A DNA stretch of 64,000 nucleotides from an uncultured Gammaproteobacteria bacterium (GCA_964515005.1 CAZEVT010000002.1:28968-92967), one strand, 5' to 3'. Positions 31,033-53,690 are shown, numbered from the stretch's first letter. The notes: generated by a model from the sequence alone, not told the origin. A program made the numbers and translations.

Positions 31033-31100
31033 ACGGGTTTCTTGACCCGGAACGGGTTTCTTGACCCGGAACGGGTTTCTTGACCCGGAACGGGTTTCTT
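31032..31100. repeat. Tandem 19-bp direct repeat (3.6 copies); each unit is a 6-bp-stem hairpin containing TTGACC
   Basis: aacgggtttcttgacccgg occurs three times plus a partial copy. CCGGGT and ACCCGG are self-complementary around a TTCTTG loop. Confidence 0.8.
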
Positions 31101-31756: not shown

Positions 31757-32726
31757 CGGAATCAACAATCAGAGAAACAAAATCGGCAAACGTCAGTCCG
31801 ACGGCGCGGTACGAAAGCGTCATGCCATACTCCACATCATCAGAGAGTCCCGGATTGCTATTTGCTTCAAGAATATACACTGTCCCACCCCGCATTCGTA
31901 CGTCCAGACGCATATAGTCTTGAAATGAAAGCTCGACAAATGCGCGAGTTGCGATATCAACAAGAGCCTCCGCAAGCTCCGGCGAAAGGACGGCCAAGGC
32001 CATATCGGACGACTGGTAATCCGCGGCAGATGCGTCCCAGCGGCTTTCGTAGGTCAGAAGTGCATCTGTCCCTTTCGTCTTGTAGACGACTTCGGCCGCA
32101 GGCAGCACCCATGGAGAGCCGTTTTTTTCAATGACCGTCACCTGAAACTCACGCCCGTCCAAAAATTCCTCAGCAATCATGGGCTCGCGAAGCGTCTCAA
32201 TCCGCTCTTTGATCCGGGCTGTCAGTTCCTCTTTGTTTTTTACCACTGCATCATGGGTTAAGCCCACGCTGCTGTGCTCAAGCGGGGGCTTGACGATGAC
32301 TGGATATACAAAATCATCGCGAATATCCTCATCTCCTGTCGTAAATTCCTGCCAAAGGGCAATCGGCAACCCCCGAAGGTCAAGCGCTTTTTTCATGCTG
32401 CGCTTGTCTGAAGTTTCCATAAAATTTTCCCGCGTGGCACCGGTCACCGGAATGCCGATTTTTCCCATGGCCGTAAGGGCGCGGTCCGAAAGGGGTAAAT
32501 CCGGACCGGTCCATTCGATAATGTTGAAGATGCAATCGGCCTGAATATTTTCAATCGTCGGCGCGATTTTGTCCTCGGCAACAGGAACGAGAGTCACCGT
32601 GTGACCATGAGACTCTAGGGCGTTTTGCACTTCGCGGGCTGATTCGGCGGTATCATCCTCCGACTCCATATATTTGGTGCCTGAAGCTCTCTTGGTTGGC
32701 AGATTATAGACGACAGCGACGTTCAT
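31731..32726 (-). CDS. ddl: D-alanine--D-alanine ligase (ATP-grasp)
   Basis: ATP-grasp motifs and a C-terminal MRLDVRM...VYILEANSNPGLS, which is Ddl-like. Confidence 0.7.
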   Translation of the reverse strand: MNVAVVYNLPTKRASGTKYMESEDDTAESAREVQNALESHGHTVTLVPVAEDKIAPTIENIQADCIFNIIEWTGPDLPLSDRALTAMGKIGIPVTGATRENFMETSDKRSMKKALDLRGLPIALWQEFTTGDEDIRDDFVYPVIVKPPLEHSSVGLTHDAVVKNKEELTARIKERIETLREPMIAEEFLDGREFQVTVIEKNGSPWVLPAAEVVYKTKGTDALLTYESRWDASAADYQSSDMALAVLSPELAEALVDIATRAFVELSFQDYMRLDVRMRGGTVYILEANSNPGLSDDVEYGMTLSYRAVGLTFADFVSLIVDSAMRRAAKA

Positions 32727-33670
32727 TTTTTGTGGTGGTATTTGGCGTGAATTTCCTTCAGCTGGGGATTGGTAATATGGGTATAAATCTGCGTGGTTGA
32801 GACGTTTTTGTACCCCAGCATCTCCTGGATTGCCCGAAGGTCCGCGCCACCTGAAAGGAGGTCGGTGGCGAAGCTATGCCGCAGGCCATGGGGCGTAATT
32901 TTTATAGGCAAACGCGCTTTCTTGGCATATTTCTCAACCAATCGCTGGACGCTTCTGGGGGTGAGGCGAAACGATTCACCGTTTTTGTCATCCGCGTCTG
33001 GCTTGCGGCCGGCATAGCGGATAAACATGGCAACCGAGGTATCATCGCGATTTTTGAGATACCGCTCAATCCAGGTAACGGCGCTGTCTGATAAAAAGAC
33101 CACCCGGGCGCGCCTGCCTTTCCCTATAACGCCAAATTCTTTCCGCTCAAAATTAATCTGATCGCGGTTTAATTTCGTCAACTCCGACACGCGAAGGCCG
33201 GTTGAGAAAAGCATCTCCAATATCGCTTTATCCCGAAGTCCCTCGGGGCGGCTTATCTCCGGCATGTTGAGGAGCCGGTCTATCTGTTCGCGCTCCAGAA
33301 ATTTAATCGACCGGCTTTCTGCCTTCGGCAGATCAATTTTTTCCGGTGCAATCACTGCTATGTCCCGCTTGAGAAGATATTTAAGAAAGCTTCGGAGCGC
33401 AATAAGATGGTAATTCTGGGTCACGCGCTTCAGGCTGATTCCTTGCGGGTCAACGTACCGCGAAAGAAAGAGCCGGTATTCGCGTATAGATTCTGCTGTA
33501 ATATCTTTTGGAGATTTCACACCTTTCACGGCAGGGGAGGGGGGGGAGCCCGACAGGAAGCCCAAAAATCGATGCAAATAGTGTTCGTAGTTCCTGATGG
33601 TCAGTTGCGAAACATTTCGTTCAATTTCAAGGTATTCTAAGAACTCTTTTAAAAGTGTATTCAGGTCCAT
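32723..33670 (-). CDS. xerC: Tyrosine recombinase XerC/XerD-like
   Basis: Catalytic region HGLRHSFATDLL...LGYKNVSTTQIYTHI with the catalytic Tyr. N-terminal core-binding domain present. Confidence 0.8.
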   Translation of the reverse strand: MDLNTLLKEFLEYLEIERNVSQLTIRNYEHYLHRFLGFLSGSPPSPAVKGVKSPKDITAESIREYRLFLSRYVDPQGISLKRVTQNYHLIALRSFLKYLLKRDIAVIAPEKIDLPKAESRSIKFLEREQIDRLLNMPEISRPEGLRDKAILEMLFSTGLRVSELTKLNRDQINFERKEFGVIGKGRRARVVFLSDSAVTWIERYLKNRDDTSVAMFIRYAGRKPDADDKNGESFRLTPRSVQRLVEKYAKKARLPIKITPHGLRHSFATDLLSGGADLRAIQEMLGYKNVSTTQIYTHITNPQLKEIHAKYHHKK

Positions 33671-34741: not shown

Positions 34742-35278
34742 CTACTTACGATGAAATCTTTGGAAAGTATCCCGCGAAAATCGAAGTTTTTCCTCCTGCC
34801 ATGAGTTGTATCCGGTGCCGCGCAAAAACATGTGAAGCATTAAATTTTTCTCCTCGTAAAATGGATATGGAACATTGCCAATCCAAATAACACGGTCGTC
34901 ATTGAGAAAAATTCTTACACACGAAGGATCCGTTGTGCCGCATTCTATGATGAAACGCCCATCCCGTGTGCGGATATCAGGATGTAATCCATCAAACTCA
35001 GATTCAAAAAGAACGTAGGATTGTCCTTGGTGTATCAACCACCGTTTTCCAAGCTTTTTGAGCGCCATATGGCCTTTTTCCTGCGGTCCTAAGCCTTCGG
35101 TGACAGCGATCGTATCCTGAATCTCGTGATAGGCTTCGACCGAAGCGATTACGGATTTTTCATAACGTACTGCGCCGTTGTCTATGGCAATCGCAAGCTC
35201 ATCAAGCACATCCCACGACGTGGCCGCCGGAAATCCGGAATAAAAAATATTTTTGAGTTCTTCGGAAGTCGGATTCAT
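34742..35278 (-). CDS. Hypothetical protein
   Basis: 178 aa, no recognisable motifs. Overlaps the stop of the downstream integrase by 4 nt. Confidence 0.35.
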   Translation of the reverse strand: MNPTSEELKNIFYSGFPAATSWDVLDELAIAIDNGAVRYEKSVIASVEAYHEIQDTIAVTEGLGPQEKGHMALKKLGKRWLIHQGQSYVLFESEFDGLHPDIRTRDGRFIIECGTTDPSCVRIFLNDDRVIWIGNVPYPFYEEKNLMLHMFLRGTGYNSWQEEKLRFSRDTFQRFHRK

Positions 35279-36291
35279 CGCACATCCTTTAGCGGGTGGA
35301 ACTTATGATGCGTTTCCTCTGCATATTGGTCTGATGTATGGACATATCGCGTCGTCGTATCCAGCGATTCATGACCCAAAAGAATCTGAATCGCCGCGGG
35401 ATTGGCGCCTCCTTCCGCCAAATACGTCGCAAATCCATGGCGCAATGTATGGGCGCTTATAGGTATATTGATATGGAGGTCCTGCCGGTATTTTTTGATG
35501 CGCTCCTGTAAATAGTTTGTTGATATGTGCTGTTTTATTGACGATAACCCGCGACCCCTGTACGGGATAAACAATGCAGGAATATGATCATGTCGAATGC
35601 GTATATATGCGCTCAGATGGTATTTGGCGCGTTCAGTTAGATACACAAAGCGTTCTTTTTTTCCTTTGCCCAAAATAAAAATTCTTCCCGTATCATCGAT
35701 CTGATCGCGTTTCAGATTGACAAGCTCGGAAATACGCATACCCGTCGCGATTAACAGTTCAAGCATGGCACGATTTCGCAGTCCCGCCCGCGAATCCTTT
35801 TCTAACCGACTCGGCGCTTCGATAATTCGTACTAATTCTTTGAGTTCTGCAATTTTCGGATGCGTGCGAATCGTTTTAACCAATTTGACCGCCTCAGGCG
35901 CCACCGGTACCTGAAAATCCATATCTATAAGGTACTTCAAATACGTTCGGACCACCGAAAGCATACGGTTCACGCTTGTAGATGCTAGCTCTTCGGAGTG
36001 CTTAAGCCGTTCTAGGGGCGTTACACGGTCTTGCGATACAAGATATGCTTTGTAATATGCAAGTTTTTTTTTGTCTAGCTGATCGAAAGGAAATCGGGAT
36101 TCAGATAAAAATTGCGCGAAGGTTAGCAGGTCGCGTTCATAGTTATAAACCGTTTCCTGTGAATACCGATTGGTTTGAAGAAAGAGGAGAAAGTCATCGA
36201 ATAATGGTAAGGAGGCTGAAACATCGATGGAACGAGATGAACCCGTCAGGGGAGTTGGAGAAATTGGTTCAGGCTTGTTAGTCGTGTTCAT
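35275..36291 (-). CDS. Tyrosine recombinase / phage-type integrase (second copy)
   Basis: HTLRHGFATYLAEGG...LLGHESLDTTTRYVHT with the R..HxxR..Y catalytic residues. About 25% of positions appear to match the first recombinase. Confidence 0.8.
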   Translation of the reverse strand: MNTTNKPEPISPTPLTGSSRSIDVSASLPLFDDFLLFLQTNRYSQETVYNYERDLLTFAQFLSESRFPFDQLDKKKLAYYKAYLVSQDRVTPLERLKHSEELASTSVNRMLSVVRTYLKYLIDMDFQVPVAPEAVKLVKTIRTHPKIAELKELVRIIEAPSRLEKDSRAGLRNRAMLELLIATGMRISELVNLKRDQIDDTGRIFILGKGKKERFVYLTERAKYHLSAYIRIRHDHIPALFIPYRGRGLSSIKQHISTNYLQERIKKYRQDLHINIPISAHTLRHGFATYLAEGGANPAAIQILLGHESLDTTTRYVHTSDQYAEETHHKFHPLKDVR

Positions 36292-39646: not shown

Positions 39647-40728
39647 CTATAGCCACGAGCGCTTAAGTTCAAGGAACCGGTTTTTCTTAATGGACGTACG
39701 AATATCTTCCATGAGGCGCTCCATAACATGGAGATTGTGGATCGTGGCTAAGCGGTACGAAAGGAGCTCTTTCACGCGAAACAGATGGTGGACGTAGGCC
39801 CGGGTGAAATGCACGCATGTGTAACAAGCGCATCCCCTTTCTATTGGCCCGAAATCCTTTGCAAACTTCGATTTAGTAATATCTATCTGCTTGTTTTTCA
39901 CATACAGCATCCCAACGCGTGCGAGTCTCGTAGGCTGTACGCAGTCAAACGTATCCATGCCGGCTTCAACGAGCGTGAAAATATCATCAATCTCCCCACT
40001 CCCAAAAGATGACGGGGTTTGTTTTGAGGAAGAAACGGTACGACCCACTCCAAAACTTTTGCCATTTCTTTTTTGCTTTCTCCCACTGACACGCCGCCAA
40101 TTGCCAATCCATCAAAATCCATGGAACCAATAAACTTGGCCGACTCCTGCCGTAAATCTTTGTACACACTCCCTTGAATTGAACCATACAGCGCCCCCTT
40201 TTTATGAGCTGCCAAACTGCGTTTTGCCCATCTATGGGTTCTGTCTAAAGATTGTCGTGCTTTTTCGTGCGTCACCGGATACGGTGTGCAATCGTCAAAT
40301 GCAATGTGGATATCCGCGCCTAACTCTTCCTGCCATTGCATACTTTTTTCCGGGGTAAACACATGCTTACTGCCATCCCAGTGGGATTTAAATTCCACTC
40401 CCTCATCCGTAATTTTTGCGCCCAAAGAAAATATCTGGAATCCTCCACTGTCGGTCATGAGCGGCCCGTTCCAGTTCATAAATTTGTGGAGTCCTCCTGC
40501 TTTCTTCACCACCGCGATCCCCGGCCGCAAATACATGTGATACGTGTTGACGAAATACAATTGAACACCAATGATGTTCAACTCTTCAGGTATGAGGCTT
40601 TTGACCGTCGCCTGCGTGCCGCACGGCACAAACGCCGGGGTCCCAATTGTGCCATGCGCCGTCCTTATCTTCCCTACTCGAGCGCGGGTATTTTTATCTT
40701 GATGAAGAACTTTAAATGCAAATGGCAT
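39647..40728 (-). pseudogene. tgt: Queuine tRNA-ribosyltransferase (tgt) split by a +/-1 frameshift
   Basis: ORF 39898..40728 carries the TGT N-terminus and core up to LPQNKPRHLLGVG. ORF 39647..40048, in another frame, carries DIFTLVEAGMDTFDCVQPTRLARVG and the CxCxxC zinc site. The frames switch near homopolymers at about 39990. Confidence 0.75.
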
Positions 40729-40730
40729 TG

Positions 40731-42284
40731 CTATATTTTATACGGTTGGGCAGAATATAGCCACGTGCGTAAATTTGCCAAAGGCCCATCTATTTCCTTT
40801 TTTTGGTTTTTCCTATACGCTCCCAGCAAACGCAAAAGCTGTTGGCTTCCTAACTGTTCTGGTTTTTGTATGCTATAAAAGTCATGCGAATTCCTCGCAT
40901 GCCATGATGGAAATTGTAAACAAAACATCGTTATTGCGGTATCTACTTGATCCGGTTTAGAAAATGAAAAGGCCGGTCCGTATACCATATATCCGTATCC
41001 ATAGATGAGTCGTCGTAATCCCGGTTCAAGCGCATCCATAATTCCCATCGGAATTGCCATACGAAGAAATAGCTCTGAATCGTAATCATTCAATCTCATA
41101 AAAAGCCGTATTATTTCGGAATTTAAAAAATTATTTTTCCGTCCAAATACTGCTACTTCTGTTTTTTTATCACGCAAAAGAACAAGCAATTCTTTCCGAT
41201 AGCGCACCCACCAATCGCCATATAATAGATTGTCACTATATCTCCCGAGATGTTGCGTTTTTTCCGCAATCGCACGGAGTCCGGCATGAAGCGCTTCTTC
41301 AATAGTGCGATAATTTGGCTCCTCAATTACTTCCGGATGTTCAAAAGCAGCACGCATATCGATATATTTTTTGCTTGGCAACACCATCCATTGTTGGGAA
41401 CGGATTGATGTACCATCAAAAAGCCTACTATACCCTTCCTCAGCTTCTGAGTAGATATATAGTGGTACAAGCGTATTCATTGATCTAGGCATCTGTGGAC
41501 CAATGCGCAAATCCCGTTCATAGTTAGTTACGTGAATCGTAATATCCGGCAATTTAGGATCCGCTTTCTCACGTACATCGCTTAATCGCACTTCCAAAGC
41601 GGTAAGGTGCGCATAGCGCACAAATCGTACCGTCACCACGCTGACGGGTTTACCCCATTTCGTTTTTTGTTCCATCACCCCTTTAAACACCACATCTTTT
41701 TCATCCGGTTTAATACGCATTCGCCTAAACGTATCTCCTTTTAATAAGTGCAGAAAGTTTGGCAGTAATCGATCTTCAACAAATTTATCGAATGGTTCAC
41801 CGAGTGGAAATTTTCTGTCAATATCCATCATATCGGGTAAATCTCCGTACATGCGCTTATGAAGCGCCGCAACTGCTGCATAATTATCCGGTCGAGAAAT
41901 GGCACTTCGAAAACTACCACCAAATCCAAACCCTAAAAAACTTAAGTGTTTCGCATCAAGTAGCGGCGTCTCAAAACGCTTAAGAAGGTCGGCGTCCCAT
42001 ATAGGATTAGATTGCAGTAGTGCAATATCAAGAAGCGTATTCAGAAACAACGCATCGTCGACCATGTGATGGAACTCTTGAGTGCCATATCGCCAATCAA
42101 CGGCACTTGCTGTATCTATCAGAAACCCTTTTAGTCCATTCTCAAGTGGAGCATAAACATAGCCGTCGTCGATTTCAGAAAATGGGAGTTTGTCACCGGA
42201 CAAAATTGACTGAGCAGCTACCTCGCTACCCAACCATTGAGCGACGGGCTCATTTGCACTGATGCCAATTTCAGGAGTTGTCAT
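40731..42284 (-). CDS. Large hypothetical protein (517 aa from the internal start)
   Basis: No recognisable motifs; AT-rich. Start moved to MTTPEIGIS (42284) to avoid a 166-nt overlap with the upstream regulator. Confidence 0.45.
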   Translation of the reverse strand: MTTPEIGISANEPVAQWLGSEVAAQSILSGDKLPFSEIDDGYVYAPLENGLKGFLIDTASAVDWRYGTQEFHHMVDDALFLNTLLDIALLQSNPIWDADLLKRFETPLLDAKHLSFLGFGFGGSFRSAISRPDNYAAVAALHKRMYGDLPDMMDIDRKFPLGEPFDKFVEDRLLPNFLHLLKGDTFRRMRIKPDEKDVVFKGVMEQKTKWGKPVSVVTVRFVRYAHLTALEVRLSDVREKADPKLPDITIHVTNYERDLRIGPQMPRSMNTLVPLYIYSEAEEGYSRLFDGTSIRSQQWMVLPSKKYIDMRAAFEHPEVIEEPNYRTIEEALHAGLRAIAEKTQHLGRYSDNLLYGDWWVRYRKELLVLLRDKKTEVAVFGRKNNFLNSEIIRLFMRLNDYDSELFLRMAIPMGIMDALEPGLRRLIYGYGYMVYGPAFSFSKPDQVDTAITMFCLQFPSWHARNSHDFYSIQKPEQLGSQQLLRLLGAYRKNQKKEIDGPLANLRTWLYSAQPYKI

Positions 42285-43452
42285 ACCGAAATCCCTTTCC
42301 CTTGACGGCTTGAATAATCGATTTATTGAAATTGAGCTCGACACATTTTTTGCGAACGCGGGAAATAAGCTGATCGATCGCCCAATCTGAATAGGAATTC
42401 TCCCAATTATCTTTCCAAACGGCTTTTGCAATTTCATCGCGGGTCACAATGTGGCCCGCCCGCTGGACAAAAAGCCGCAAAACGTACTGTTCCTGCGAAG
42501 ACAGAATTGTATCTATTGGGACATCTCCGAGGACCAACCTATCCCCTGATATTTCTATACGTTTATTTGGTTTTCGAAGCGATTCTACATATTCTGCAAG
42601 AAGAGGTATCGTGAGGTATAATCGATGACCTCGAGCTTCCAGCCATCTAGTCTGTTTCAAAAACTCGATACTGATTGCTTCGTCCGGCGTAAAATCGTTC
42701 GCGCCCACGACAACTTTCAGTATCGCTGTTTGTTCCGACCGCAACAATCCATCATATATGCTTTTTAGCTTTATCTGCATCATCGGGTGATGTAATATAT
42801 CTTGAACATTCGTAGATCCGGTATCCCGAACAAAACGCACCGCTTGCTTAAGGGGCGTAAAATGGCATGTTGCCGTTCGCACGACTTCTCTCAGAATTTT
42901 TTCGCTCATGGATACCTTCCACGCGCGGGTCCAATGGTACAAAAAATACGCGCTCGAGGCTTTGTCGTGAAGGGGCATTATAACGGTATTTTGAATAAAA
43001 GTAGAGGTATAGGTAAGTATGGAACTTACCGTCGGGTGAAGAAAATTTATATTGAAAAATAAAACGTATGAAATGGTCGGATTTTTCGCCTGACGTTTCC
43101 GTAAGTAATGGAAAAACGATTCAGACTTGCCCACAAGCAAACGGTCTATGCCACAAATCCAGTAAATAGGCGCGTTTGTGTTCTCTTCATGTTTTTGAAA
43201 TTCTTTTTCAAGAACATCGGGGTCTTCCAGGTTTCCTGTATCGATATCGATAATAATGGGGACATTTCCGCGAAAATGCGTCGTAATAAGATCGGGTCGT
43301 TTACAAAGCGCTTCATGACGCCGAAGCACTTCTCCTTTATGGTAGATATACACACTTCCCGATTCCTGAAACTTGGAAATATGACTCCATGAAAAAAGCA
43401 AATCCCGAAACTCTTCTTCTGAATACGCGTCTGCATATAACGCTTGTTTCAT
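42271..43452 (-). CDS. Transcriptional regulator with a C-terminal OmpR/PhoB-type winged helix and an unknown ~290-aa N-terminal domain
   Basis: C-terminus SQEQYVLRLFVQRAGHIVTRDEIAKAVWKDNWENSYSDWAIDQLISRVRKK...GKGFRY fits the trans_reg_C pattern. No receiver-domain motifs (no Asp pocket) upstream. Confidence 0.55.
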   Translation of the reverse strand: MKQALYADAYSEEEFRDLLFSWSHISKFQESGSVYIYHKGEVLRRHEALCKRPDLITTHFRGNVPIIIDIDTGNLEDPDVLEKEFQKHEENTNAPIYWICGIDRLLVGKSESFFHYLRKRQAKNPTISYVLFFNINFLHPTVSSILTYTSTFIQNTVIMPLHDKASSAYFLYHWTRAWKVSMSEKILREVVRTATCHFTPLKQAVRFVRDTGSTNVQDILHHPMMQIKLKSIYDGLLRSEQTAILKVVVGANDFTPDEAISIEFLKQTRWLEARGHRLYLTIPLLAEYVESLRKPNKRIEISGDRLVLGDVPIDTILSSQEQYVLRLFVQRAGHIVTRDEIAKAVWKDNWENSYSDWAIDQLISRVRKKCVELNFNKSIIQAVKGKGFRYDNS

Positions 43453-43488
43453 ACGGATATTGGGCAGGAACGGAAGTATATCATATTG

Positions 43489-43503
43489 TTGTCAAATTGA
43501 CAA
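43489..43503. promoter_or_regulatory. Perfect 7-1-7 palindrome TTGTCAAATTGACAA in the divergent intergenic region (candidate operator)
   Basis: Lies between the regulator start (43452) and the plus-strand gene at 43584. Confidence 0.4.
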
Positions 43504-43583
43504 TATTTCATCAGAATCCCCCATCAAGCATCGAAAGGATACAAAGTATATAAAACAACAACAAATTATCGAAGGAGGCAATT

Positions 43584-43967
43584 ATGACAAGAGATACCGA
43601 GCCAAAGTCAATAAGTCCGGAAAAAGCAATTATAGAAGTTGTCGTACAAGGGGCTATGCGATATGGAATTGGGCCAACTCAGGCAGGCGAATACCTGCAG
43701 GAACTAGCAGGAATTCTGACACCAATTTCAGAAAATCAAAGAATCGACGAGTTAACAAAACTGATAGACCCTAACATTCCGAACAGAAGTTTAATCAAAA
43801 AAATTGCTGAGAGTGGATGGCGGCTTCATATTGACCCTATCAAGCTATTTCAATTTAATATGGATTTCGTCACTGTTGTTCTTGCGTTACCCGAAGAAAT
43901 GCGATCGCAAGCCATTGATCCGGATTTTCTAAACGGCATTGCCGGACATCTCAAAGGCAAGATGTAA
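43584..43967 (+). CDS. Hypothetical protein
   Basis: 127 aa, no recognisable motifs. Its stop abuts the following sigma region-4 gene. Confidence 0.35.
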   Translation: MTRDTEPKSISPEKAIIEVVVQGAMRYGIGPTQAGEYLQELAGILTPISENQRIDELTKLIDPNIPNRSLIKKIAESGWRLHIDPIKLFQFNMDFVTVVLALPEEMRSQAIDPDFLNGIAGHLKGKM

Positions 43968-43968
43968 T

Positions 43969-44241
43969 ATGGCAAAAGTTTCCCCGGAAGACACGGAGGC
44001 AATGGCATTACGAAATGTGATGACGCCGAAGTTGCGCGAAGACTTGGACCGGGCATTAAGCACATTATCCGAAAGGCGAAGAGAAATATTTCTGGCGCAT
44101 TTTTTGGATGGTGCTACCTATGCTGATTTGAGCCTGCACTATGGAGTAACAGAAAAAAGAATTGGTGCAATTATCAACAATACTCGCAATAATTTACGAG
44201 GCGTCACTAGTCTCAGGCAATATTTGGATATGATTCCGTGA
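43969..44241 (+). CDS. Sigma-70 region-4-like helix-turn-helix protein (stand-alone)
   Basis: LSERRREIFLAHFLDGATYADLSLHYGVTEKRIGAIINNTRNNLR is the sigma70_r4_2 pattern. Start placed at MAKVSPED. Confidence 0.45.
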   Translation: MAKVSPEDTEAMALRNVMTPKLREDLDRALSTLSERRREIFLAHFLDGATYADLSLHYGVTEKRIGAIINNTRNNLRGVTSLRQYLDMIP

Positions 44242-44279
44242 CTCTCTTAAGGTGCCTTCAAGGACTCTCCTCGTAGGCC

Positions 44280-44711
44280 TTACCCGGCCCCGTGTTCGAT
44301 CCGCTCAATCAGTTCCTTTGGCGAAACAATGCGAAACATGCGGATTTTGCCCCGAAGAGCTAACAGGTGTTTCTTATCCAGGGTCACGAGGAAATCTGCG
44401 CGATATTCTTTCGCCGATGCGAGTACATGCGCATCGCCGACATCAACGACCACTGCTTCAAATCCTCGTACAATACTGACCGGCGGTGCGGGAACAACGG
44501 TAAACAATTTTGTGAGTGTGCGGATAGATGTAGCGGGAATACTCAACTTCGCGCGGTGGCGCATAATTTCATCCAGAATGATTTCACTCACGAATCCCTG
44601 TACATTCCCTTTCCGGATCCATCCCAGCAGTTTCCCTGAACCTCCGGACGGTGATGCAAAACCCGAAAGAACAACGGAAGCATTAAACAGTATTCGTGGT
44701 TTTGCGCGCAT
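44280..44711 (-). CDS. PIN-domain toxin (VapC-like)
   Basis: MRAKPRILFNASVVLSG at the N-terminus (an Asn takes the place of the usual first acidic residue; LDEIMRH and VVDVGDAHV follow), the conserved acidic positions, and C-terminal ADFLVTLDKKHLL. C-terminal tail IERIEHGAG. Confidence 0.55.
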   Translation of the reverse strand: MRAKPRILFNASVVLSGFASPSGGSGKLLGWIRKGNVQGFVSEIILDEIMRHRAKLSIPATSIRTLTKLFTVVPAPPVSIVRGFEAVVVDVGDAHVLASAKEYRADFLVTLDKKHLLALRGKIRMFRIVSPKELIERIEHGAG

Positions 44712-44916
44712 GCAACTCCTTGCTTTCTTTTTTATCCAGCTCAATGAACTCACGGAGCTCCGCATCTGTATACGATCGGACGGGATATGCCAGAGTCCGC
44801 ACCGGCTCGATCGTCAGTCTCCCACGATCAGTACGCACGCGCACCAGATCATTTTCCGAAATACCGACACGCTCGCGGAGTTTTTTTGGAATAGTAACCA
44901 GCCCCTTCGGCTGCAT
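44683..44916 (-). CDS. AbrB/MazE/SpoVT-type antitoxin
   Basis: KGLVTIPKKLRERVGISENDLVRVRTDRGRLTIEPV is the swapped-hairpin barrel motif. Overlaps the PIN gene start. Confidence 0.5.
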   Translation of the reverse strand: MQPKGLVTIPKKLRERVGISENDLVRVRTDRGRLTIEPVRTLAYPVRSYTDAELREFIELDKKESKELHARKTTNTV

Positions 44917-45008
44917 TTTTACAATATCTTCAAGTGGAAGTAGTTGCATAAGTTGGAATTTCTACCTTTCTATATTTCCATATTATACTATTTTTAACAA
45001 CGTGTCAA

Positions 45009-45056
45009 CTATCCCGCGCCGTGTTCGATTTTGAGCCGTGAGATTTTGCCGGCAAT
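45009..45056 (-). repeat. Orphan copy of the C-terminal tail cassette (IAGKISRLKIEHGAG*), in frame after the TAA stop of the upstream gene
   Basis: The sequence cccgcgccgtgttcgattttgagccgtgagattttgccggc is about 93% identical to 45794..45835, which is the coding 3' end of the kefB-like gene. Confidence 0.6.
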
Positions 45057-45674
45057 TTAATATTCTTTTGTTGCAATAACCTGCGAGAGAAGGTTTGCTA
45101 CATCAAGCTTCTTTGCCTGACCCAAAAGATATTTCTCATCCAGTTTACCTTTTTGCACCAGCCACATTCCCACACAGTCACGCATATGACGTTCGCTGGG
45201 CACTTCTTTACACCATGACAGTTTCGTAAGAATCAAGTCTTCCGGGGATAACAGAGGAATTGTTGTGTCTATGATGCGAATAGCACGGCGGCGTTGCCAT
45301 TTCCTGTCAAACTCCGTACTTGTCACTAACCATAAATCTATTTTTACCCCGACATATGTGTGATACAGACTATAGAAGCTGATATTTGGATCGTGAAGCT
45401 GAATTGTATCCTGCAGATATATACGAGGAAGTGCAGTAAGCGCTCGCATAAGCCTTTCTTTTGCATTCCTCGAAATTTCCAACACAAAATCAATGTCATG
45501 CGTAGCCCGGGGATATCCGTAAAACGCAACGGCAAGACTCCCAGTGAGAAGATAAGGAATGGTAAATGTCTGGAAAAGACGCGCAAAGGTAACAAGAATG
45601 TCTTGCTGGCCGTGTTCAATTTTGTTTTGGAGATTTTTTTTGCCCATGATATGTTTCCCTATCCTGCTTCCCAA
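45057..45674 (-). CDS. AbiEii/DUF1814-like nucleotidyltransferase-fold protein
   Basis: LLTGSLAVAFYGYPRATHDIDFVLE matches the NTase G[ST]x9-13[DE]h[DE]h motif. About 200 aa; the start may be the internal Met at 45647. Confidence 0.4.
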   Translation of the reverse strand: MGSRIGKHIMGKKNLQNKIEHGQQDILVTFARLFQTFTIPYLLTGSLAVAFYGYPRATHDIDFVLEISRNAKERLMRALTALPRIYLQDTIQLHDPNISFYSLYHTYVGVKIDLWLVTSTEFDRKWQRRRAIRIIDTTIPLLSPEDLILTKLSWCKEVPSERHMRDCVGMWLVQKGKLDEKYLLGQAKKLDVANLLSQVIATKEY

Positions 45675-45768
45675 GTCGGGCTAGTTCTCGTACAAAATCA
45701 GACAGTTTGAGAGCCTGTATCAGCCGTTTTTCGCCGGAAAGTTTACGAAGCACCGTCGTTTGATCCAT
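45616..45768 (-). CDS. Small ORF (50 aa) overlapping the start of the nucleotidyltransferase-like gene; possible truncated antitoxin partner
   Basis: MDQTTVLRKLSGEKRLIQALKLSDFVRELARLGKQ... A TATAAT box sits 7 nt upstream of the ATG, suggesting a leaderless transcript. Confidence 0.3.
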   Translation of the reverse strand: MDQTTVLRKLSGEKRLIQALKLSDFVRELARLGKQDRETYHGQKKSPKQN

Positions 45769-45790
45769 GAAAAGTATTATACCACGACAA

Positions 45791-47521
45791 CTACCCCGCC
45801 CCGTGTTCGATTTTGAGCCGTGAGATTTTGCCTGCGATTTCTTCTTCATTGACTCCAAATGATGGAAGCAAGCGTTCGACGATTGAGATTGCCGCTTCAA
45901 ACTCCGGCTGAACGACCGCATCAACGCCTAAAGATTTAAGGTGCTTCTGATCTTCTTCATGATGCGTCCGGCAGATGATTTTAATCTTGCGGTTTAAGGT
46001 TTGGGCGTGTCCAATGACCATCTCCTGCGTATGCCGGTCCGGTATAGCAATAATCAGCGCCTTCGCATGGTCTACCTGCGCAAAATCCAAGACGTCCTTG
46101 TCCGCGGGGTCGCCGTAGATGACCGGTATCCCTTTTTCCTTCAGCGATGCCACGGCGGCACTATTGTAATCAACAACGACAAACGGGAGCCCAGACAACT
46201 CAAGCGCCCTTCCTATATACTTCCCCACCCTGCCGTAGCCGCAGAGAACCACGTGATCCCGGTACGGCAACTCTTCTTTCATATCCGCAAGTTCTTTTTT
46301 AGTGTGAAAAATCGTCGGCGTATACTTCCCAAGCCATTCGTGGAACGCGTAATACAGTCCGTGGCCCCGGGCCATAAGCGGAGTAGAGACTAAGATCGTG
46401 AGAAACGTAAGGGCGACAATAAAAATTGCATGCTCCCCGCCTATGGCGCCAAGGGCAAGACTTTGGGACGCGATGATAAATCCAAACTCGCTCATCTGGG
46501 TCAGGCCAACGGCGACCAAAAATGACGTTTTTCGGTGATAGCCTAAAAACCGCATGAGCCCCATGACGACAAACCATTTAAGCGCAAGAATGACGGCGGT
46601 CATGATCGCAAGCGTGCCTGCCATCTGCCACAAATACGCAACTGGAATTCCCATCCCGATCGATACAAAAAACACCACGGCAAACAGATCCCGAAGCGGC
46701 CGGATTTCAGCAAATATCGCATGATTTTGACTGGTCTCGGCAATAAGAAGGCCGGCGATGAACGCACCCAAGCCCGCGGAAAGTCCTAGAACATACGTGG
46801 TAATTGCGGAAAGAAACACCAAGGCAACGGTCGCCAAGACAAAGATTTCGCGGCTCCCCATGGAGGCGATTTTCCCCAACACCCGCGGCACCACGCGTTT
46901 GCCTATAAGGACAATAAGCCCCAAGGCAAGAGCCGCCTTCAGAACGCTGATGCCAAGCGTCGTCACGAGACCCGTAATACTCGCGTCACCCGAGGCGGAA
47001 CTGGATACCACGGACGGCAAAAGAATCATGATGGGGATGACCGCAATATCCTGAACAACGAGCCACCCGGTCATCACCTCGCCCGGCAAGGTATCCAGCT
47101 CTCCCCGTTCCGAAAGCACCTTGACGACAACCGCGGTTGAGGAAAGGGCGGCGGCAACGGCAATCACAAGGGCAGGCAAGAACCCAAACCCCAGATACAT
47201 GGCACCAAGAAGAAACAGGAATATGCAAATGAGTATCTGAAACGATGCCGCCCAGGTGACCGCGCCAAGAACACGTTTCAACCTGTGAAATGAAAACTCC
47301 ACCCCAAGGGTAAAAAGGAGAAGGGTGACGCCGGTATCGGCGATAATTTTCAAAAATACGTGATCCGTAATTCTCGGAAACAGATTGCCAAAAAGTACAC
47401 CTGCCGCGATATACCCGAGAAGAAGCGGTTGCTTGAGCAGTTTCGCTATCGCCCCGCCAAACATGGCGGCCCCAAAAACAAGAAGCAGCGTTGTGATGAG
47501 GGATAAGCTATGCGTGTCCAT
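45791..47521 (-). CDS. kefB: CPA2-family monovalent cation/H+ antiporter with a C-terminal TrkA-N (RCK) domain
   Basis: About 12 transmembrane segments, then VVLCGYGRVGKYIGRALE...VVVDYN, a Rossmann-type RCK domain. The C-terminal tail AGKISRLKIEHGAG is encoded by the repeat cassette. Confidence 0.75.
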   Translation of the reverse strand: MDTHSLSLITTLLLVFGAAMFGGAIAKLLKQPLLLGYIAAGVLFGNLFPRITDHVFLKIIADTGVTLLLFTLGVEFSFHRLKRVLGAVTWAASFQILICIFLFLLGAMYLGFGFLPALVIAVAAALSSTAVVVKVLSERGELDTLPGEVMTGWLVVQDIAVIPIMILLPSVVSSSASGDASITGLVTTLGISVLKAALALGLIVLIGKRVVPRVLGKIASMGSREIFVLATVALVFLSAITTYVLGLSAGLGAFIAGLLIAETSQNHAIFAEIRPLRDLFAVVFFVSIGMGIPVAYLWQMAGTLAIMTAVILALKWFVVMGLMRFLGYHRKTSFLVAVGLTQMSEFGFIIASQSLALGAIGGEHAIFIVALTFLTILVSTPLMARGHGLYYAFHEWLGKYTPTIFHTKKELADMKEELPYRDHVVLCGYGRVGKYIGRALELSGLPFVVVDYNSAAVASLKEKGIPVIYGDPADKDVLDFAQVDHAKALIIAIPDRHTQEMVIGHAQTLNRKIKIICRTHHEEDQKHLKSLGVDAVVQPEFEAAISIVERLLPSFGVNEEEIAGKISRLKIEHGAG

Positions 47522-52137: not shown

Positions 52138-52150
52138 ATGGGTTGTATTT

Positions 52151-52184
52151 CTCCGAAGGAGCAATACGTCTTCGTATTATATCA
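52151..52184. repeat. 34-nt module, copy A (minus-strand sense: TGATATAAT plus a small hairpin), upstream of the Nif3-family gene
   Basis: ctccgaaggagcaatacgtcttcgtattatatca; AATACG and CGTATT form a dyad. Copies B and C flank the other side of the tRNA. Confidence 0.6.
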
Positions 52185-52189
52185 AACTC

Positions 52190-52278
52190 TGGTGCCTAGG
52201 GAGAGACTCGAACTCTCATGGAGTGTTAGCCCCACAGGTTTTTGAGACCTGCGCGTCTACCGGTTCCGCCACCCAGGC
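52190..52278 (-). tRNA. tRNA-Leu (anticodon CAA), type II with a long variable arm and encoded CCA
   Basis: GCCTGGGTGGCGGAACCGGTAGACGCGCAGGTCTCAAAAACCTGTGGGGCTAACACTCCATGAGAGTTCGAGTCTCTCCCTAGGCACCA. Has a 7-bp acceptor stem (one G-U), T-loop TTCGAGT, and anticodon loop CUCAAAA. Confidence 0.85.
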
Positions 52279-52284
52279 GCGATT

Positions 52285-52348
52285 ACTGCGAAGCAGCAAT
52301 ACGTCTTCGTAATTACTCCGAAGGAGCAATGCTTCTTAGCATTATATC
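52285..52348. repeat. 34-nt module, copies B and C in tandem, between the dnaB stop and the tRNA
   Basis: ctgcgaagcagcaatacgtcttcgtaatta followed by ctccgaaggagcaatgcttcttagcattatatca. Copy C overlaps the dnaB stop codon. Confidence 0.6.
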
Positions 52349-53690
52349 ATTTAGCCGCGGCCTCTTCGCGTTTCCGCTCTACGCCGTAAAAACGGATCCT
52401 ATCGCCCCGGAAGATAAGGTCGACCTCCCCCAAGGGTCCGTTTCTGTGTTTGGCCACGCGGAGCTTCGTCGGGATCTGAGTCCCCCACTGCGTCTGGTCG
52501 CCTTGTTCCCGGTACAAAAACATAACGACATCGGCGTCCTGCTCGATCGATCCTGACTCGCGAAGATCAGATAGCTCCGGAACCCGGGTGCCGCGCGATT
52601 CAACGGCACGCGACAGCTGTGAACAGGCAAGTACCGGAAGCCGGAGTTCGCGCGCGAGATTCTTGAGGCTCTGGGAAATGACGGACACCTCCTGGACGCG
52701 GTTGTCGAATTTCCGACCCGAATCGGCAAGTTGAAGGTAGTCGACGATGATAAGTTTCACGTCATGCTCCACCTGAAGGCGGCGTGCCTTCGTGCGCATT
52801 TCCAGTATGTTTAACCCAGGTGTGTCATCAATGTATAGGGGGGCCTCCGCAAGCTCGCCCATCGCCTCGGAAAGCTTAGTAAAATCATCGTCCGTCAGCT
52901 TGCCGGTCTTGAGCTTCCACGCGTCGATATCCGCCTGGGAAACGAGGAGCCTATCCACGACCTCTTCTTTACTCATTTCCAAAGAAAATATGCCAACCGG
53001 AATTTTTTCCTTCACCGCCACATACTGGGCGATATTGAGAATCATCGCGGTTTTCCCGGTTCCCGGACGGGCTGCAAGAATAAGAAGGTTAGCGTCCTGC
53101 ATGCCTGCGAGCCGGAAGTCTATATCGGGAAACCCCGTTGGCACACCCCGGAGTCCCCCGGCTCTCTTATGAAGCTCGTCTAAACGGTCAAACGAGGAGG
53201 CAAGCGCATCTTTAATCGGGATAAAGTCGCGCTTGGTTGCCGCCTGGGAGATGGCAAATATTTCCTGTTCTGCCTGGTCCAGTATTTCCTTGGCATCCCC
53301 TTCTTCCTTAAACGCCAGTTCGGTAACCCGCGCCCCAAGTTCAACCAAGCGGCGCTTGGTATAATTTTCCTGGATGATACGGGCATACTTGGCCGCGTGG
53401 GCTGAGGTCGGCACCACATTCAAAAGATCGGAAACTGCAGACGCTCCGCCTGCCACTTTCAGTGACCCGTCTTTTTTCAGCTGGGCGGTCACCGACACCA
53501 CGTCTAAGGGCTCATGCGCCTCGTAAAGCGCTATCATTGCCGTAAATATGGCGGCGTGGGCGTCGCGGTAAAAGTGGGCGGGACGCAAAAATTCCGCAAC
53601 CTCAATCATCGCGTCTTTGTCGATTAAAATCGCACCCAGTACCGATTGTTCGGCCACCGAGTCATGCGGGGGGACCTTGGGATCGGCCAT
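52347..53690 (-). CDS. dnaB: Replicative DNA helicase DnaB
   Basis: N-terminal domain (EQSVLGAILID), Walker A ARPGTGKTA and the RecA-like core. Start at the internal Met MADPKVPP (53690) is assumed; the track ORF runs to 53747. Confidence 0.9.
   Translation of the reverse strand: MADPKVPPHDSVAEQSVLGAILIDKDAMIEVAEFLRPAHFYRDAHAAIFTAMIALYEAHEPLDVVSVTAQLKKDGSLKVAGGASAVSDLLNVVPTSAHAAKYARIIQENYTKRRLVELGARVTELAFKEEGDAKEILDQAEQEIFAISQAATKRDFIPIKDALASSFDRLDELHKRAGGLRGVPTGFPDIDFRLAGMQDANLLILAARPGTGKTAMILNIAQYVAVKEKIPVGIFSLEMSKEEVVDRLLVSQADIDAWKLKTGKLTDDDFTKLSEAMGELAEAPLYIDDTPGLNILEMRTKARRLQVEHDVKLIIVDYLQLADSGRKFDNRVQEVSVISQSLKNLARELRLPVLACSQLSRAVESRGTRVPELSDLRESGSIEQDADVVMFLYREQGDQTQWGTQIPTKLRVAKHRNGPLGEVDLIFRGDRIRFYGVERKREEAAAK

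What the first reader, a model, noticed from the sequence alone, without database searches (positions are those of the whole stretch)
44281..45838. A ~42-nt cassette encoding the C-terminal tail KISRLKIEHGAG* recurs at the 3' ends of three adjacent, unrelated genes
Minus-strand sense AAAATCTCACGGCTCAAAATCGAACACGG(C/G)GCGGG(A/G)TAG is found three times. It forms the in-frame C-terminus of the CPA2 antiporter (...EEEIAGKISRLKIEHGAG*, 45791-45835). It follows the TAA stop of the AbiEii-like gene in the same frame (...ATKEY* IAGKISRLKIEHGAG*, 45009-45056). In shortened form it ends the PIN toxin (...IERIEHGAG*, 44281-44310). The two long copies are about 93% identical at the DNA level. This looks like a mobile 3' gene-terminus module. 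Candidate explanations are a recombination site for the nearby Xer-like recombinases (attC-like), a MITE-like element, or a degron or sorting tail. One copy may be rescued by stop-codon readthrough.
Basis: seen in the sequence. Interest (0 to 1): 0.65.

Follow-up and report, generated by a model that had tools for sequence, protein, structure and literature searches.

The report
Gene-end scars flanking inserted toxin–antitoxin cassettes
The repeated "tail" is the normal end of an ion-antiporter gene; the two extra copies are leftover duplicates marking where two toxin–antitoxin gene cassettes were inserted one after another at that gene's stop codon, a spot used repeatedly in related uncultured bacteria.

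Summary
The three copies are real and non-random. The reading "mobile tail that terminates three unrelated genes" is wrong. KISRLKIEHG(x)G* is the native, near-invariant C-terminus of this 576-aa CPA2 antiporter in more than 100 Microgenomates/Gottesmanbacteria homologues. Copy 2 is untranslated DNA after the NTase stop. Copy 3 adds 6 to 7 residues to a PIN toxin whose relatives normally end ...KELIxRL(S)*. The extra copies bound two self-promoted toxin–antitoxin (TA) cassettes: a small antitoxin with an AbiEii-like NTase, and AbrB with PIN. Both sit directly after the antiporter stop codon.

The pattern recurs in at least 15 related loci with several cassette types and orders. It is always downstream, always on the same strand, and homology always ends at the stop codon. 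None of about 880 other gene ends shows it. Differences between proximal and distal copies are mostly synonymous, so the copies behave like different alleles of a working gene end.

Best reading: serial recombinational insertion at the gene terminus, each time regenerating the gene end and displacing the old one, much like an att site or cassette array. The enzyme is unknown: no recombinase lies in the cassettes, and two Xer-like genes lie 9 to 13 kb away. The main rival is homology-facilitated illegitimate recombination. This is a new variant of a known kind, of moderate interest.

The parts
45791..47521 (-). CPA2 (Na_H_Exchanger + TrkA_N) antiporter gene, 576 aa. It is the target gene whose terminus is repeated.
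   Evidence: ORF. Pfam: PF00999 at 172 bits and PF02254 at 101 bits. 120 homologues, mostly 576 aa.
45791..45850 (-). Copy 1: the native 3' terminus (...EEEIAGKISRLKIEHGAG*), including the TAG stop at 45791-45793.
   Evidence: The tail GKISRLKIEHGxG* is conserved in all listed homologues. Synonymous sites vary freely among 74 distinct gene ends.
45776..45784 (-). Extended -10-like TGGTATAAT directly after the antiporter stop. It is the presumed promoter of cassette A.
   Evidence: Read from the sequence. The same motif sits at the same place in L009. Function is inferred.
45616..45768 (-). Cassette A, small putative antitoxin (50 aa, MDQTTVLRKLSG...).
   Evidence: ORF. No Pfam or NCBIfam hit. 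It always pairs with the NTase in relatives. The antitoxin role is inferred from this pairing.
45057..45647 (-). Cassette A, AbiEii-like nucleotidyltransferase toxin (196 aa), ending ...ATKEY*.
   Evidence: Pfam PF08843 AbiEii, 24.5 bits against a cut-off of 22.5. Homologues listed.
45009..45068 (-). Copy 2: a displaced, untranslated duplicate of the antiporter terminus. It has 48 nt in frame (IAGKISRLKIEHGAG*) plus about 12 nt of weaker homology.
   Evidence: All four differences from copy 1 within the 48 nt are synonymous.
44980..45008 (-). Promoter-like TTGACA-17-TAATAT immediately after copy 2. It is the presumed promoter of cassette B.
   Evidence: 10 of 12 matches. It is conserved at the start of the PIN cassette in L021, L100, L101 and L102.
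44683..44949 (-). Cassette B, AbrB/MazE-type antitoxin (88 aa).
   Evidence: Pfam PF04014 at 35 bits. NCBIfam TIGR01439, AbrB family, at 37.9 bits.
44280..44711 (-). Cassette B, PIN_3 toxin (143 aa). Its last 6-7 codons and its stop are supplied by copy 3.
   Evidence: Pfam PF13470 at 50.7 bits. NCBIfam TIGR00305. 116 of 120 homologues lack the tail.
44280..44300 (-). Copy 3: the short 21-nt duplicate ATCGAACACGGGGCCGGGTAA.
   Evidence: It is 17/18 identical to copy 1, and the one difference is synonymous.
44255..44277 (-). 23-nt near-palindrome CCTACGAGGAGAGTCCTTGAAGG (called HP1 in this report), 2 nt after copy 3. It recurs at cassette boundaries in relatives and lies directly after the antiporter stop in L088.
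   Evidence: 10 of the 11 distinct copies in related loci lie within 1.6 kb downstream of the antiporter stop. Its role is unknown: it could be original downstream flank or a terminator-like element.
32723..33670 (-). Xer-like tyrosine recombinase (315 aa). It is only a candidate trans-acting enzyme, and no link to the repeats has been shown.
   Evidence: Pfam Phage_integrase at 145 bits. Best NCBIfam matches are XerC/XerD at 242 bits, below the cut-off. The integron-integrase model scores 121 bits against a cut-off of 265.
35275..36291 (-). Second Xer-like tyrosine recombinase (338 aa). It is only a candidate, and no link has been shown.
   Evidence: Orthologues are also present in the cassette-free loci L012 and L013.

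Best explanation
Copy 1 is the antiporter's own terminus. Copies 2 and 3 are displaced duplicates of that terminus. They mark the far ends of two toxin–antitoxin (TA) cassettes that were inserted one after the other exactly at the antiporter stop codon.

Proposed mechanism: incoming DNA carrying a cassette plus a copy of the last 21 nt or more of the gene recombines with the chromosomal terminus in a Campbell-type, att-like event. This rebuilds a complete antiporter ORF with a stop codon. It places the cassette's own promoter immediately downstream. It pushes the previous terminus, and any older cassette, further away. In this window the AbrB-PIN cassette arrived first and the antitoxin-NTase cassette arrived second. 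The PIN ORF now reads into the 21-nt scar, which gives it the IEHGAG* ending.

What is shown:
- the tail is native to the antiporter;
- the site is used recurrently across the lineage;
- the site is specific to this gene;
- the cassettes are TA modules;
- the differences between copies look like differences between alleles.

What is inferred:
- a circular or otherwise terminus-bearing intermediate;
- a site-specific recombinase acting in trans, with the two Xer-like genes 9 to 13 kb away as the only local candidates.

I put about 0.85 on "insertion scars at a hotspot". I put about 0.35-0.4 on the step that requires a dedicated recombinase. The overall confidence given (0.6) is for the Campbell-type, terminus-regenerating insertion account as a whole.
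For: 1. The tail is native. All 120 listed antiporter homologues end in (G)K[IV]SRLKIEHGxG.

2. The pattern recurs. The in-frame motif EHGxx* occurs 16 times downstream on the same strand in 404 kb. It occurs 2 times upstream in 532 kb (one independent event) and 0 times on the opposite strand in 937 kb. A 20-nt self-match search found copies only downstream, 400-1200 nt away, in L009, L016, L021, L025, L031, L040, L054, L058, L083 and the window. Further cases are L010, L023, L055, L069, L101 and L102.

3. The pattern is specific to this gene. Of 887 long-ORF ends in all loci, only the antiporter end has a downstream copy.

4. The intervals hold compact cassettes that start right after the stop codon. 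They include antitoxin plus AbiEii NTase, AbrB plus PIN, a second VapBC type, and a second AbiEii type. Every tblastn hit to these proteins in 1.34 Mb lies 20-1100 nt after the antiporter stop.

5. Cassette order varies between genomes: A-B in the window and L100, B-A' in L021, B-A'-C in L101, and B-C-A' in L102.

6. Homology always ends at the stop codon, and the stop codon itself differs between copies in 12 of 16 pairs.

7. Mismatches between proximal and distal copies fall at third codon positions in 48 of 73 cases (p=1.5e-8). There are 42 synonymous against 17 nonsynonymous codon differences. In L010, L023 and L069 the distal copy matches other genomes' gene ends better than its own.

8. 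At least seven independent short copies share the same left boundary, just before AT(C/T)GA(A/G)CACGG. A hairpin of variable sequence often abuts that boundary.

9. In L101 one gene is flanked by two identical degenerate copies.

10. Related loci L011, L012 and L013 have a single copy and no TA cassette.

11. Between the window and L009, codon identity among identical residues is higher in cassette A (66-72%) than in the antiporter (50-56%). This hints at more recent exchange of the cassette.

12. GC content drops to 0.43-0.46 in the cassettes, against about 0.52 in the antiporter.
Against: - No recombinase gene lies in any cassette or in the variable region.
- The Xer-like genes are conserved synteny and are also present where there are no cassettes.
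- The 21-nt core shows no dyad symmetry or dif/attC-like architecture, and its folds are not significant (z from -1.7 to +0.9).
- Block length varies from 18 to 63 nt (21 to 68 by the scans). It also varies among orthologous PIN cassettes: 21, 27 and about 36-43 nt.
- Some arrays have cassettes with no scar at all (L100, L107, L039).
- NTase cassettes at unrelated loci (L104-L106) have no flanking repeats.
- No excised circle and no strain-level empty/occupied polymorphism was observed.
- The antiporter genes show no clear mosaic signal, so that test was inconclusive.
Confidence: 0.6

Rival explanations
1. 3'-end displacement by homology-facilitated illegitimate recombination (HFIR), with no dedicated recombinase. 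Under this view, DNA taken up from a relative carries the antiporter 3' region plus a cassette. It pairs with the resident antiporter gene as a homologous anchor. Its non-homologous far end is joined illegitimately inside the last 20-70 nt of the resident gene. The donor's gene end becomes the working one, and the resident's end is left downstream. This is the process proposed for Rhs tips and for T6SS effector-immunity arrays.
For: - Remnant length is variable.
- Four orthologous PIN cassettes have four different junction points. Some lie at chance similarity between the PIN end (ELIxRL) and the antiporter ISRL motif.
- Differences between copies are allele-like and synonymous, and the stop codons differ.
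- No recombinase and no site symmetry were found.
- Some junctions have no remnant (L100, L107).
- The literature offers a model for arrays built this way (PMC5361080; PMC3240628).
Against: - At least seven independent junctions share the same boundary at -21. Random illegitimate joints do not predict this.
- In L101 an internal gene is flanked by two identical, already degenerate copies that could not have been working gene ends.
- HFIR is reported to be rare (PMC5361080), yet about two thirds of cassette junctions here carry a scar.
- No mosaic 3' segment was detected in the antiporter genes, although the test is weak at 70-80% identity.
Confidence: 0.3
2. A purely local duplication, by slippage or unequal crossing-over, in this genome only, with no mobility and no general significance.
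For: Only three copies exist in the 64-kb window. The homology of copy 2 extends beyond 42 nt, and all of that extension is antiporter sequence.
Against: - The same architecture occurs in at least 15 loci whose antiporters are only 49-83% identical, with different cassettes.
- The copies differ as alleles do.
- Unrelated cassettes lie between the copies.
Confidence: 0.04
3. The tail is a functional peptide module, such as a degron or a sorting or interaction tag, that unrelated proteins have acquired, with stop-codon readthrough on the NTase.
For: The tail is extremely conserved on the antiporter. Copy 2 is in frame with the NTase.
Against: - Only 4 of 120 PIN homologues carry it, and they carry different lengths of it.
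- NTase orthologues end at KEY*, with unrelated or no tail DNA after the stop.
- Short copies in other loci are not joined to any ORF (L009, L010, L016, L023, L069).
Confidence: 0.02
4. The repeat is a cis-acting RNA or DNA element of its own, such as a terminator, a riboregulator, a MITE or a REP-like element.
For: It lies at gene 3' ends. A palindrome (HP1) is nearby.
Against: - No Rfam match at E<=1.
- Folds are not better than shuffled controls.
- There are no inverted termini and no other copies in the window.
- Synonymous sites of the native copy vary freely, so there is no DNA- or RNA-level constraint.
Confidence: 0.02

Closest known systems
Genomic islands that integrate into the 3' end of a conserved protein-coding gene and lie between direct repeats of that terminus. 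Examples are SGI1 and relatives in the last 18 bp of trmE (papers listed, e.g. PMC5397566, PMC3004903) and SCCmec/SCC elements at the 3' end of orfX/rlmH, including tandem and recombinase-less elements (papers listed, e.g. PMC3780952). Details of these systems are from my own knowledge.
   Same: - The target is the extreme 3' end of a conserved housekeeping-type gene, and the gene stays intact.
- The insert is bounded by direct repeats of the gene terminus.
- Several elements accumulate in tandem, each separated by a repeat.
- Some members carry no recombinase of their own.
   Different: - The inserts here are only 0.4-1.2 kb, and most are just a self-promoted TA pair.
- No cognate integrase or Ccr-type recombinase is present anywhere nearby.
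- The repeat length is variable (about 20 to 68 nt).
- The hosts are Microgenomates, in the Candidate Phyla Radiation (CPR).
- Excision has not been shown.
Integron gene-cassette arrays (attI / attC / IntI).
   Same: - Arrays of small single-function cassettes sit at one fixed site.
- The newest cassette lies next to the fixed site and older ones are displaced.
- Cassette order is shuffled between relatives.
- TA cassettes are common.
- A hairpin of variable sequence often precedes the conserved boundary sequence.
   Different: - There is no adjacent IntI. The nearest tyrosine recombinases score far below the integron-integrase cut-off.
- There is no attC architecture with R''/R' boxes.
- The cassettes carry their own promoters.
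- The boundary repeat is 21 nt or more of coding sequence from a neighbouring gene.
C-terminal displacement arrays, such as Rhs and CDI orphan tips and T6SS effector-immunity arrays, which are proposed to arise by homology-facilitated illegitimate recombination (PMC5361080, read).
   Same: - A conserved gene acts as the anchor.
- Each displaced unit is preceded by a variable-length remnant of the conserved gene's 3' region.
- Arrays grow from the gene outwards.
- No recombinase is needed.
   Different: - In those systems the gene's own C-terminus is the variable toxic part that gets swapped. Here the antiporter terminus is invariant at the protein level and the inserts are independent TA operons.
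- A recurrent fixed boundary at -21 is seen here.
Acinetobacter dif modules and other Xer-dependent elements (PMC6449649 and PMC13141974, abstracts seen).
   Same: - Small modules without their own recombinase, often TA pairs, are bounded by short recombination sites.
- They are shuffled between replicons by host Xer proteins acting in trans.
   Different: - Those sites are 28-bp XerC/XerD sites in alternating orientation on plasmids.
- Here the repeats are direct, chromosomal, derived from a gene terminus and without 11-6-11 symmetry.

Membership tests
Integron | An integron integrase (IntI) gene adjacent to the insertion site. | tested here: not met
   There is no recombinase next to the site. 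The nearest tyrosine recombinases are 9.5-13 kb away. They score 121 and 69 bits on TIGR02249 (cut-off 265), and their best matches are XerC/XerD.
Integron | attC sites: imperfect palindromes with RYYYAAC ... GTTRRRY boxes at the 3' end of each cassette. | tested here: not met
   The boundary sequences were read directly. No such boxes are present. Folds of the three copies are not better than shuffled controls.
Integron | Mostly promoterless cassettes expressed from a common Pc promoter. | tested here: not met
   Each cassette starts with its own promoter-like site: TGGTATAAT, and TTGACA-17-TAATAT.
Site-specific integrative element at the 3' end of a gene (SGI1/trmE type, SCC/rlmH type) | The insert is flanked by direct repeats identical or similar to the 3' terminus of the target gene, and the target ORF is kept intact. 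| tested here: met
   The antiporter ORF is full length, 576 aa as in its homologues.
Site-specific integrative element at the 3' end of a gene (SGI1/trmE type, SCC/rlmH type) | Tandem accretion of elements separated by repeat copies. | tested here: met
   The window has 2 cassettes and 3 copies. L083, L101, L102 and L054 also have arrays.
Site-specific integrative element at the 3' end of a gene (SGI1/trmE type, SCC/rlmH type) | A cognate integrase or recombinase, either on the element or demonstrably acting in trans. | tested here: not met
   No Pfam recombinase domain is present in any gene of the variable region of the window, L009-L011 or L100-L102. Action in trans cannot be tested with these tools.
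Site-specific integrative element at the 3' end of a gene (SGI1/trmE type, SCC/rlmH type) | Precise excision to a circular form and regeneration of an empty site. | not testable with these tools
   This needs read-level metagenome data or experiments. Cassette-free relatives exist (L011-L013), but they are different species.
Xer-dependent modules (dif modules / IMEX) | 28-bp dif-like sites with two 11-bp arms around a 6-bp spacer. For dif modules, the flanking sites are in alternating orientation. | tested here: not met
   The repeats are direct. No dyad symmetry is visible in the 21-nt core or its flanks. There is no GC-skew turn at the locus.
C-terminal displacement array (Rhs / CDI / T6SS effector-immunity) | Variable-length remnants of the conserved gene's 3' region precede the displaced units. 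| tested here: met
   Remnants of about 20 to 68 nt.
C-terminal displacement array (Rhs / CDI / T6SS effector-immunity) | The displaced units are alternative C-terminal toxin domains of the anchor gene, together with their immunity genes. | tested here: not met
   The antiporter terminus is invariant. The inserts are independent TA operons.
MITE / REP-type repeat | Terminal inverted repeats, a short target duplication, and many dispersed copies. | tested here: not met
   Only three copies exist in 64 kb, all at this locus, with no inverted termini. A scan of 185,579 species genomes with the 20-nt core found 8 single matches in unrelated phyla, consistent with chance.
Type II / type IV toxin-antitoxin modules (cassette content) | Adjacent small antitoxin and toxin genes with recognised toxin domains. 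| tested here: met
   AbiEii at 24.5 bits (cut-off 22.5), PIN_3 at 50.7 bits, and MazE/AbrB at 35 bits. NCBIfam finds a PIN toxin and an AbrB-family protein. Activity has not been tested.

The most novel reading that the evidence does not exclude
Microgenomates may possess an integron-like cassette platform that has not been described. In this reading, the last 21 nt of a conserved antiporter gene act as the fixed acceptor site. Mobile mini-cassettes, mostly TA modules, carry a "hairpin + 21-nt core" recombination site. A host recombinase acting in trans, possibly one of the Xer-like enzymes, inserts, excises and reshuffles them.
Probability: 0.25. Interest if true: 0.75.

Novelty: new variant of a known kind. 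Interest (0 to 1): 0.5.

Why it matters
Bacteria of the Candidate Phyla Radiation (CPR) have tiny genomes and few recognised mobile elements. How they gain defence and addiction modules is poorly understood. This locus shows a lineage-wide landing pad. The stop codon of one conserved antiporter gene repeatedly receives toxin–antitoxin (TA) cassettes, and each insertion leaves a datable scar.

If a dedicated or host recombinase drives the process, it would be a new cassette-capture system with a very short, protein-constrained target. That could be useful as a marker of horizontal gene flow in uncultured bacteria. If it is homology-facilitated illegitimate recombination, it is a clean natural record of that process in bacteria presumed to be naturally competent.

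For annotation there is a practical lesson. C-terminal extensions such as PIN-IEHGAG, and in-frame peptides after stop codons, can be recombination scars and not functional tails.

Tried and rejected
- A genome-contig scan with the 20-nt core gave only 8 isolated matches in unrelated phyla, which I treat as chance.
- A viral-contig scan with the core gave 0 hits.
- A viral-contig scan with the HP1 palindrome gave 6 hits in phage contigs. They lack the full palindrome context, and their number is about what I estimate chance would give. L094 is an ordinary phage terminase region.
- Rfam at E<=1 on the locus and on three related loci found nothing.
- RNA folding of the three copies was not significant.
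- I looked by eye for dyad symmetry, dif-like organisation or attC boxes in the core and its flanks and found none.
- Four of the nine short distal copies (L010, L016, L023, L069) carry a non-native 'GG' just before the core. In window copy 3 the same 'GG' is simply the PIN Arg codon, so I did not rely on this as evidence for a shared element-borne arm.
- A sliding-window test for a donor-derived mosaic 3' segment in the antiporter genes was inconclusive, because all pairs are only 66-79% identical and the 3' third is generally more conserved.
- NTase cassettes at non-antiporter loci (L104-L106) showed no meaningful flanking repeats.
- The 100-aa coiled-coil gene ('C') first looked like a cassette. 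It lies directly between the antiporter and tgt, without scars, in L026, L080 and L082, so it may be an old resident gene.
- A literature search for CPR combined with TA cassettes found no prior description.

Full report
**Observation**

On the minus strand, the 39-nt string AAAATCTCACGGCTCAAAATCGAACACGG(S)GCGGG(R)TAG occurs at 45791-45829 and 45009-45047. No match appeared in 100 shuffles. The 17-nt core occurs a third time at 44284-44300, where 0.04 matches are expected.

- Copy 1 ends the CPA2 antiporter ORF (45791-47521).
- Copy 2 follows the TAA of an NTase gene, in frame.
- Copy 3 (44280-44300) supplies the last codons and the stop of a PIN gene.
- Homology between copies 1 and 2 runs for about 60 nt at 87% identity. 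Copy 3 shares 21 nt.

**Whose tail is it?**

A protein search with the antiporter returned more than 2000 relatives. Those that carry a name are labelled Gottesmanbacteria, Microgenomates or Patescibacteria. The best 120 are nearly all 576 aa, and every one ends in (G)K[IV]SRLKIEHGxG. Across 74 distinct gene ends the amino acids R-L-K-I-E-H-G are invariant or nearly so. Their synonymous positions vary freely: AAA/AAG 40:34, GAG/GAA 41:33, ATC/ATT/ATA 33:29:10. The tail is therefore the antiporter's native terminus, constrained at the protein level, and not a mobile module.

Of 120 homologues of the PIN toxin, only 4 end in EHGxG, and each carries a different length of tail. The other 116 end ...SPKELIxRL(S)*. 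Orthologous NTases in L009, L010, L100 and L107 all stop at ...KEY*, and different DNA follows the stop. Copy 2 is therefore untranslated DNA. The IEHGAG on PIN is a junction by-product.

**What lies between the copies**

Each interval is a compact cassette that begins immediately after a stop codon with a promoter-like site.

- Cassette A begins with TGGTATAAT (45776-45784). It holds a 50-aa putative antitoxin and a 196-aa AbiEii-like nucleotidyltransferase (Pfam 24.5 bits, cut-off 22.5).
- Cassette B begins with TTGACA-17-TAATAT (44980-45008). It holds an AbrB/MazE antitoxin and a PIN_3 toxin.
- GC content is 0.43-0.46 in the cassettes, against about 0.52 in the antiporter.

**Related loci**

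Relatives keep the synteny MFS - lgt - dksA-like - rluA - antiporter - [variable] - tgt - lytR. I fetched 80 antiporter loci from metagenomes, plus loci found through protein look-ups.

The terminal 20 nt of each antiporter gene was searched against its own locus. Extra copies occur only downstream, on the same strand, 400-1200 nt away. They are present in L009, L016, L021, L025, L031, L040, L054, L058, L083 and the window. A frame-aware scan for EHGxx* gave 16 downstream hits in 404 kb. It gave 2 upstream hits in 532 kb (one independent) and none on the other strand in 937 kb. This scan added L010, L023, L069 and a third copy in L083. L055, L101 and L102 add further cases.

As a control, I tested 887 long-ORF ends in all loci. 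Only the antiporter end has a downstream copy.

The intervening DNA encodes the same NTase pair, the same AbrB-PIN pair, a second VapBC type, a second AbiEii type, or other small genes. All tblastn hits to these proteins in 1.34 Mb lie 20-1100 nt after the antiporter stop. Cassette order differs between genomes:

- A-B in the window and L100;
- B-A' in L021;
- B-A'-C in L101;
- B-C-A' in L102.

Decayed and chimeric cassettes occur in L087, L088, L058 and L054. L011, L012 and L013 have one copy and no TA cassette. The antiporter stop codon is therefore a lineage-wide insertion hotspot, and the repeats are its boundary marks.

**Anatomy of the repeats**

- On the right, homology always ends at the stop codon. 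The stop codon itself differs between the proximal and distal copy in 12 of 16 pairs.
- On the left, the block is about 20 to 68 nt long.
- At least seven independent short copies begin at the same position, just before AT(C/T)GA(A/G)CACGG. They are often abutted by a hairpin whose sequence differs from locus to locus.
- Of 73 mismatches between proximal and distal copies, 48 are at third codon positions (p=1.5e-8). There are 42 synonymous against 17 nonsynonymous codon differences.
- In L010, L023 and L069 the distal copy matches other genomes' gene ends better than its own.

The two copies therefore differ in the way alleles of a working gene differ. One of each pair was imported from another lineage.

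In L101 a gene is flanked by two identical copies that share the same disabling changes (ITYGAG*). This shows that duplication or recombination also happens at non-coding copies.

A 23-nt near-palindrome, which I call HP1 (44255-44277), follows copy 3. In relatives it lies directly after the antiporter stop (L088), after distal copies (L021), or after cassette genes (L009, L010, L016). Ten of its 11 distinct copies are within 1.6 kb of the antiporter end. It is most simply read as original downstream flank or a cassette 3' structure. Its role is open.

**Mechanism**

The simplest account is serial recombinational insertion at the gene terminus. Incoming DNA that carries a cassette plus a copy of the terminal 21 nt or more recombines with the chromosomal terminus. 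This regenerates an intact antiporter, places a self-promoted cassette right behind it, and displaces the former terminus. Later trimming and microhomology deletions explain fusions such as PIN-IEHGAG and the missing scars in L100 and L107.

The history of the window then follows. The AbrB-PIN cassette inserted first, as in L021, leaving copy 3 next to HP1. The NTase cassette inserted second, leaving copy 2.

Codon identity among conserved residues between the window and L009 is higher in cassette A (66-72%) than in the antiporter (50-56%). This hints at more recent exchange of the cassette.

The enzyme is not established.

- For a site-specific recombinase acting in trans: the fixed -21 boundary, the L101 case, and the shuffled cassette orders.
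- Against it: no recombinase in any cassette or variable region, no dyad symmetry, and variable block lengths even among orthologous PIN cassettes.

The two tyrosine recombinases in the window (32723-33670 and 35275-36291) are Xer-like. They score 242 and 189 bits on the XerC/XerD models and far below the integron-integrase cut-off. They belong to the conserved synteny and are also present in cassette-free loci. They are candidates only.

The main rival is homology-facilitated illegitimate recombination, with the antiporter as anchor. This has been proposed for Rhs and T6SS arrays (PMC5361080). It explains the variable remnants and the allele-like differences. It does not explain the recurrent boundary or the L101 repeats.

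**Rejected readings**

- Degron, sorting tail or readthrough: rejected.
- RNA element: no Rfam match and no significant fold.
- MITE: no inverted termini and no other copies.
- Purely local duplication: contradicted by the recurrence in at least 15 loci.

**Comparison with known systems**

In function, the locus resembles three kinds of known system.

- Islands that target the 3' end of conserved genes and lie between repeats of that terminus, such as SGI1 at trmE and SCC at rlmH (papers listed).
- Integron arrays.
- Acinetobacter dif modules, which are TA-carrying modules without a recombinase, moved by host Xer proteins.

It fails the defining tests for integrons (no IntI, no attC, cassettes with their own promoters) and for dif modules (no 28-bp Xer sites, and direct instead of alternating orientation). 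It lacks the cognate recombinase of SGI1/SCC-type elements. It shares the remnant architecture of C-terminal displacement arrays but not their logic, because the anchor gene's terminus is invariant. A literature search found no description of such arrays in CPR bacteria.

**Verdict**

This is a real, recurrent and gene-specific feature. It is a new variant of a known kind: insertion hotspot or cassette array at a gene terminus. Interest is moderate (0.5). The most novel reading not excluded is a trans-acting, integron-like cassette platform in Microgenomates. I give it about 0.25 probability.

Noticed in passing
window 39647-40728 (-): The tgt (queuine tRNA-ribosyltransferase) gene is split into two overlapping ORFs, 39898-40728 and 39647-40048. 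tgt also appears split or frameshifted in relatives L009, L100 and L073. This could be recurrent pseudogenisation, a programmed frameshift or an assembly error.
   Followed up: no
window 44255-44277; L009, L010, L016, L021, L088, L102: The 23-nt near-palindrome CCTACGAGGAGAGTCCTTGAAGG varies in its loop and at one stem position. 10 of its 11 distinct copies in about 1.3 Mb of related loci lie within 1.6 kb downstream of the antiporter stop. It sits sometimes before a cassette promoter and sometimes after a cassette gene. Its role (terminator, operator or recombination element) is unknown.
   Followed up: partly
window 45610-45623 (-): The N-terminus of the NTase encodes NKIEHGQ. Its DNA, AAAATTGAACACGG, matches the repeat core at 13 of 14 positions. 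The L009 orthologue has KTEQG instead. This may be chance or a trace of gene conversion or recombination with the core.
   Followed up: no
window 52147-52349: A 38-nt sequence (ATTTCTCCGAAGGAGCAATACGTCTTCGTATTATATCA) occurs three times at 79-100% identity, flanking the tRNA-Leu(CAA) gene at 52190-52278.
   Followed up: no
window 31032-31100: A perfect 19-nt tandem repeat (AACGGGTTTCTTGACCCGG) is present in about 3.6 copies in an intergenic stretch.
   Followed up: no
window 34742-36291 (-): A second Xer-like tyrosine recombinase (338 aa) overlaps the start of a 178-aa ORF that has no Pfam or NCBIfam match. The same gene pair is present in L012 and L013 but not within 10 kb in L009 or L010.
   Followed up: partly
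L087 1052-1165: This is a chimeric small ORF. The N-terminus of the 'MDQTT' antitoxin of the NTase cassette is fused to the C-terminal part of the AbrB antitoxin of the PIN cassette. It appears to be a deletion product spanning two adjacent cassettes.
   Followed up: partly
L101 4430-4461 and 4818-4849: Two identical degenerate copies of the antiporter terminus (…CTCAAGATTACGTACGGGGCGGGGTGA, reading ITYGAG*) flank a 100-aa coiled-coil gene. Both carry the same disabling substitutions, so one was copied from the other after it had decayed.
   Followed up: partly
window 40731-44241: The rest of the interval between the antiporter and tgt is also variable and low in GC (0.38-0.45). It holds a 568-aa protein with no known domain, a 393-aa protein with an OmpR-type Trans_reg_C domain, a 127-aa ORF, and a 100-aa protein containing only sigma-70 region 4. 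Similar genes occur in L011 and L101 but not in L009, L010 or L012.
   Followed up: partly
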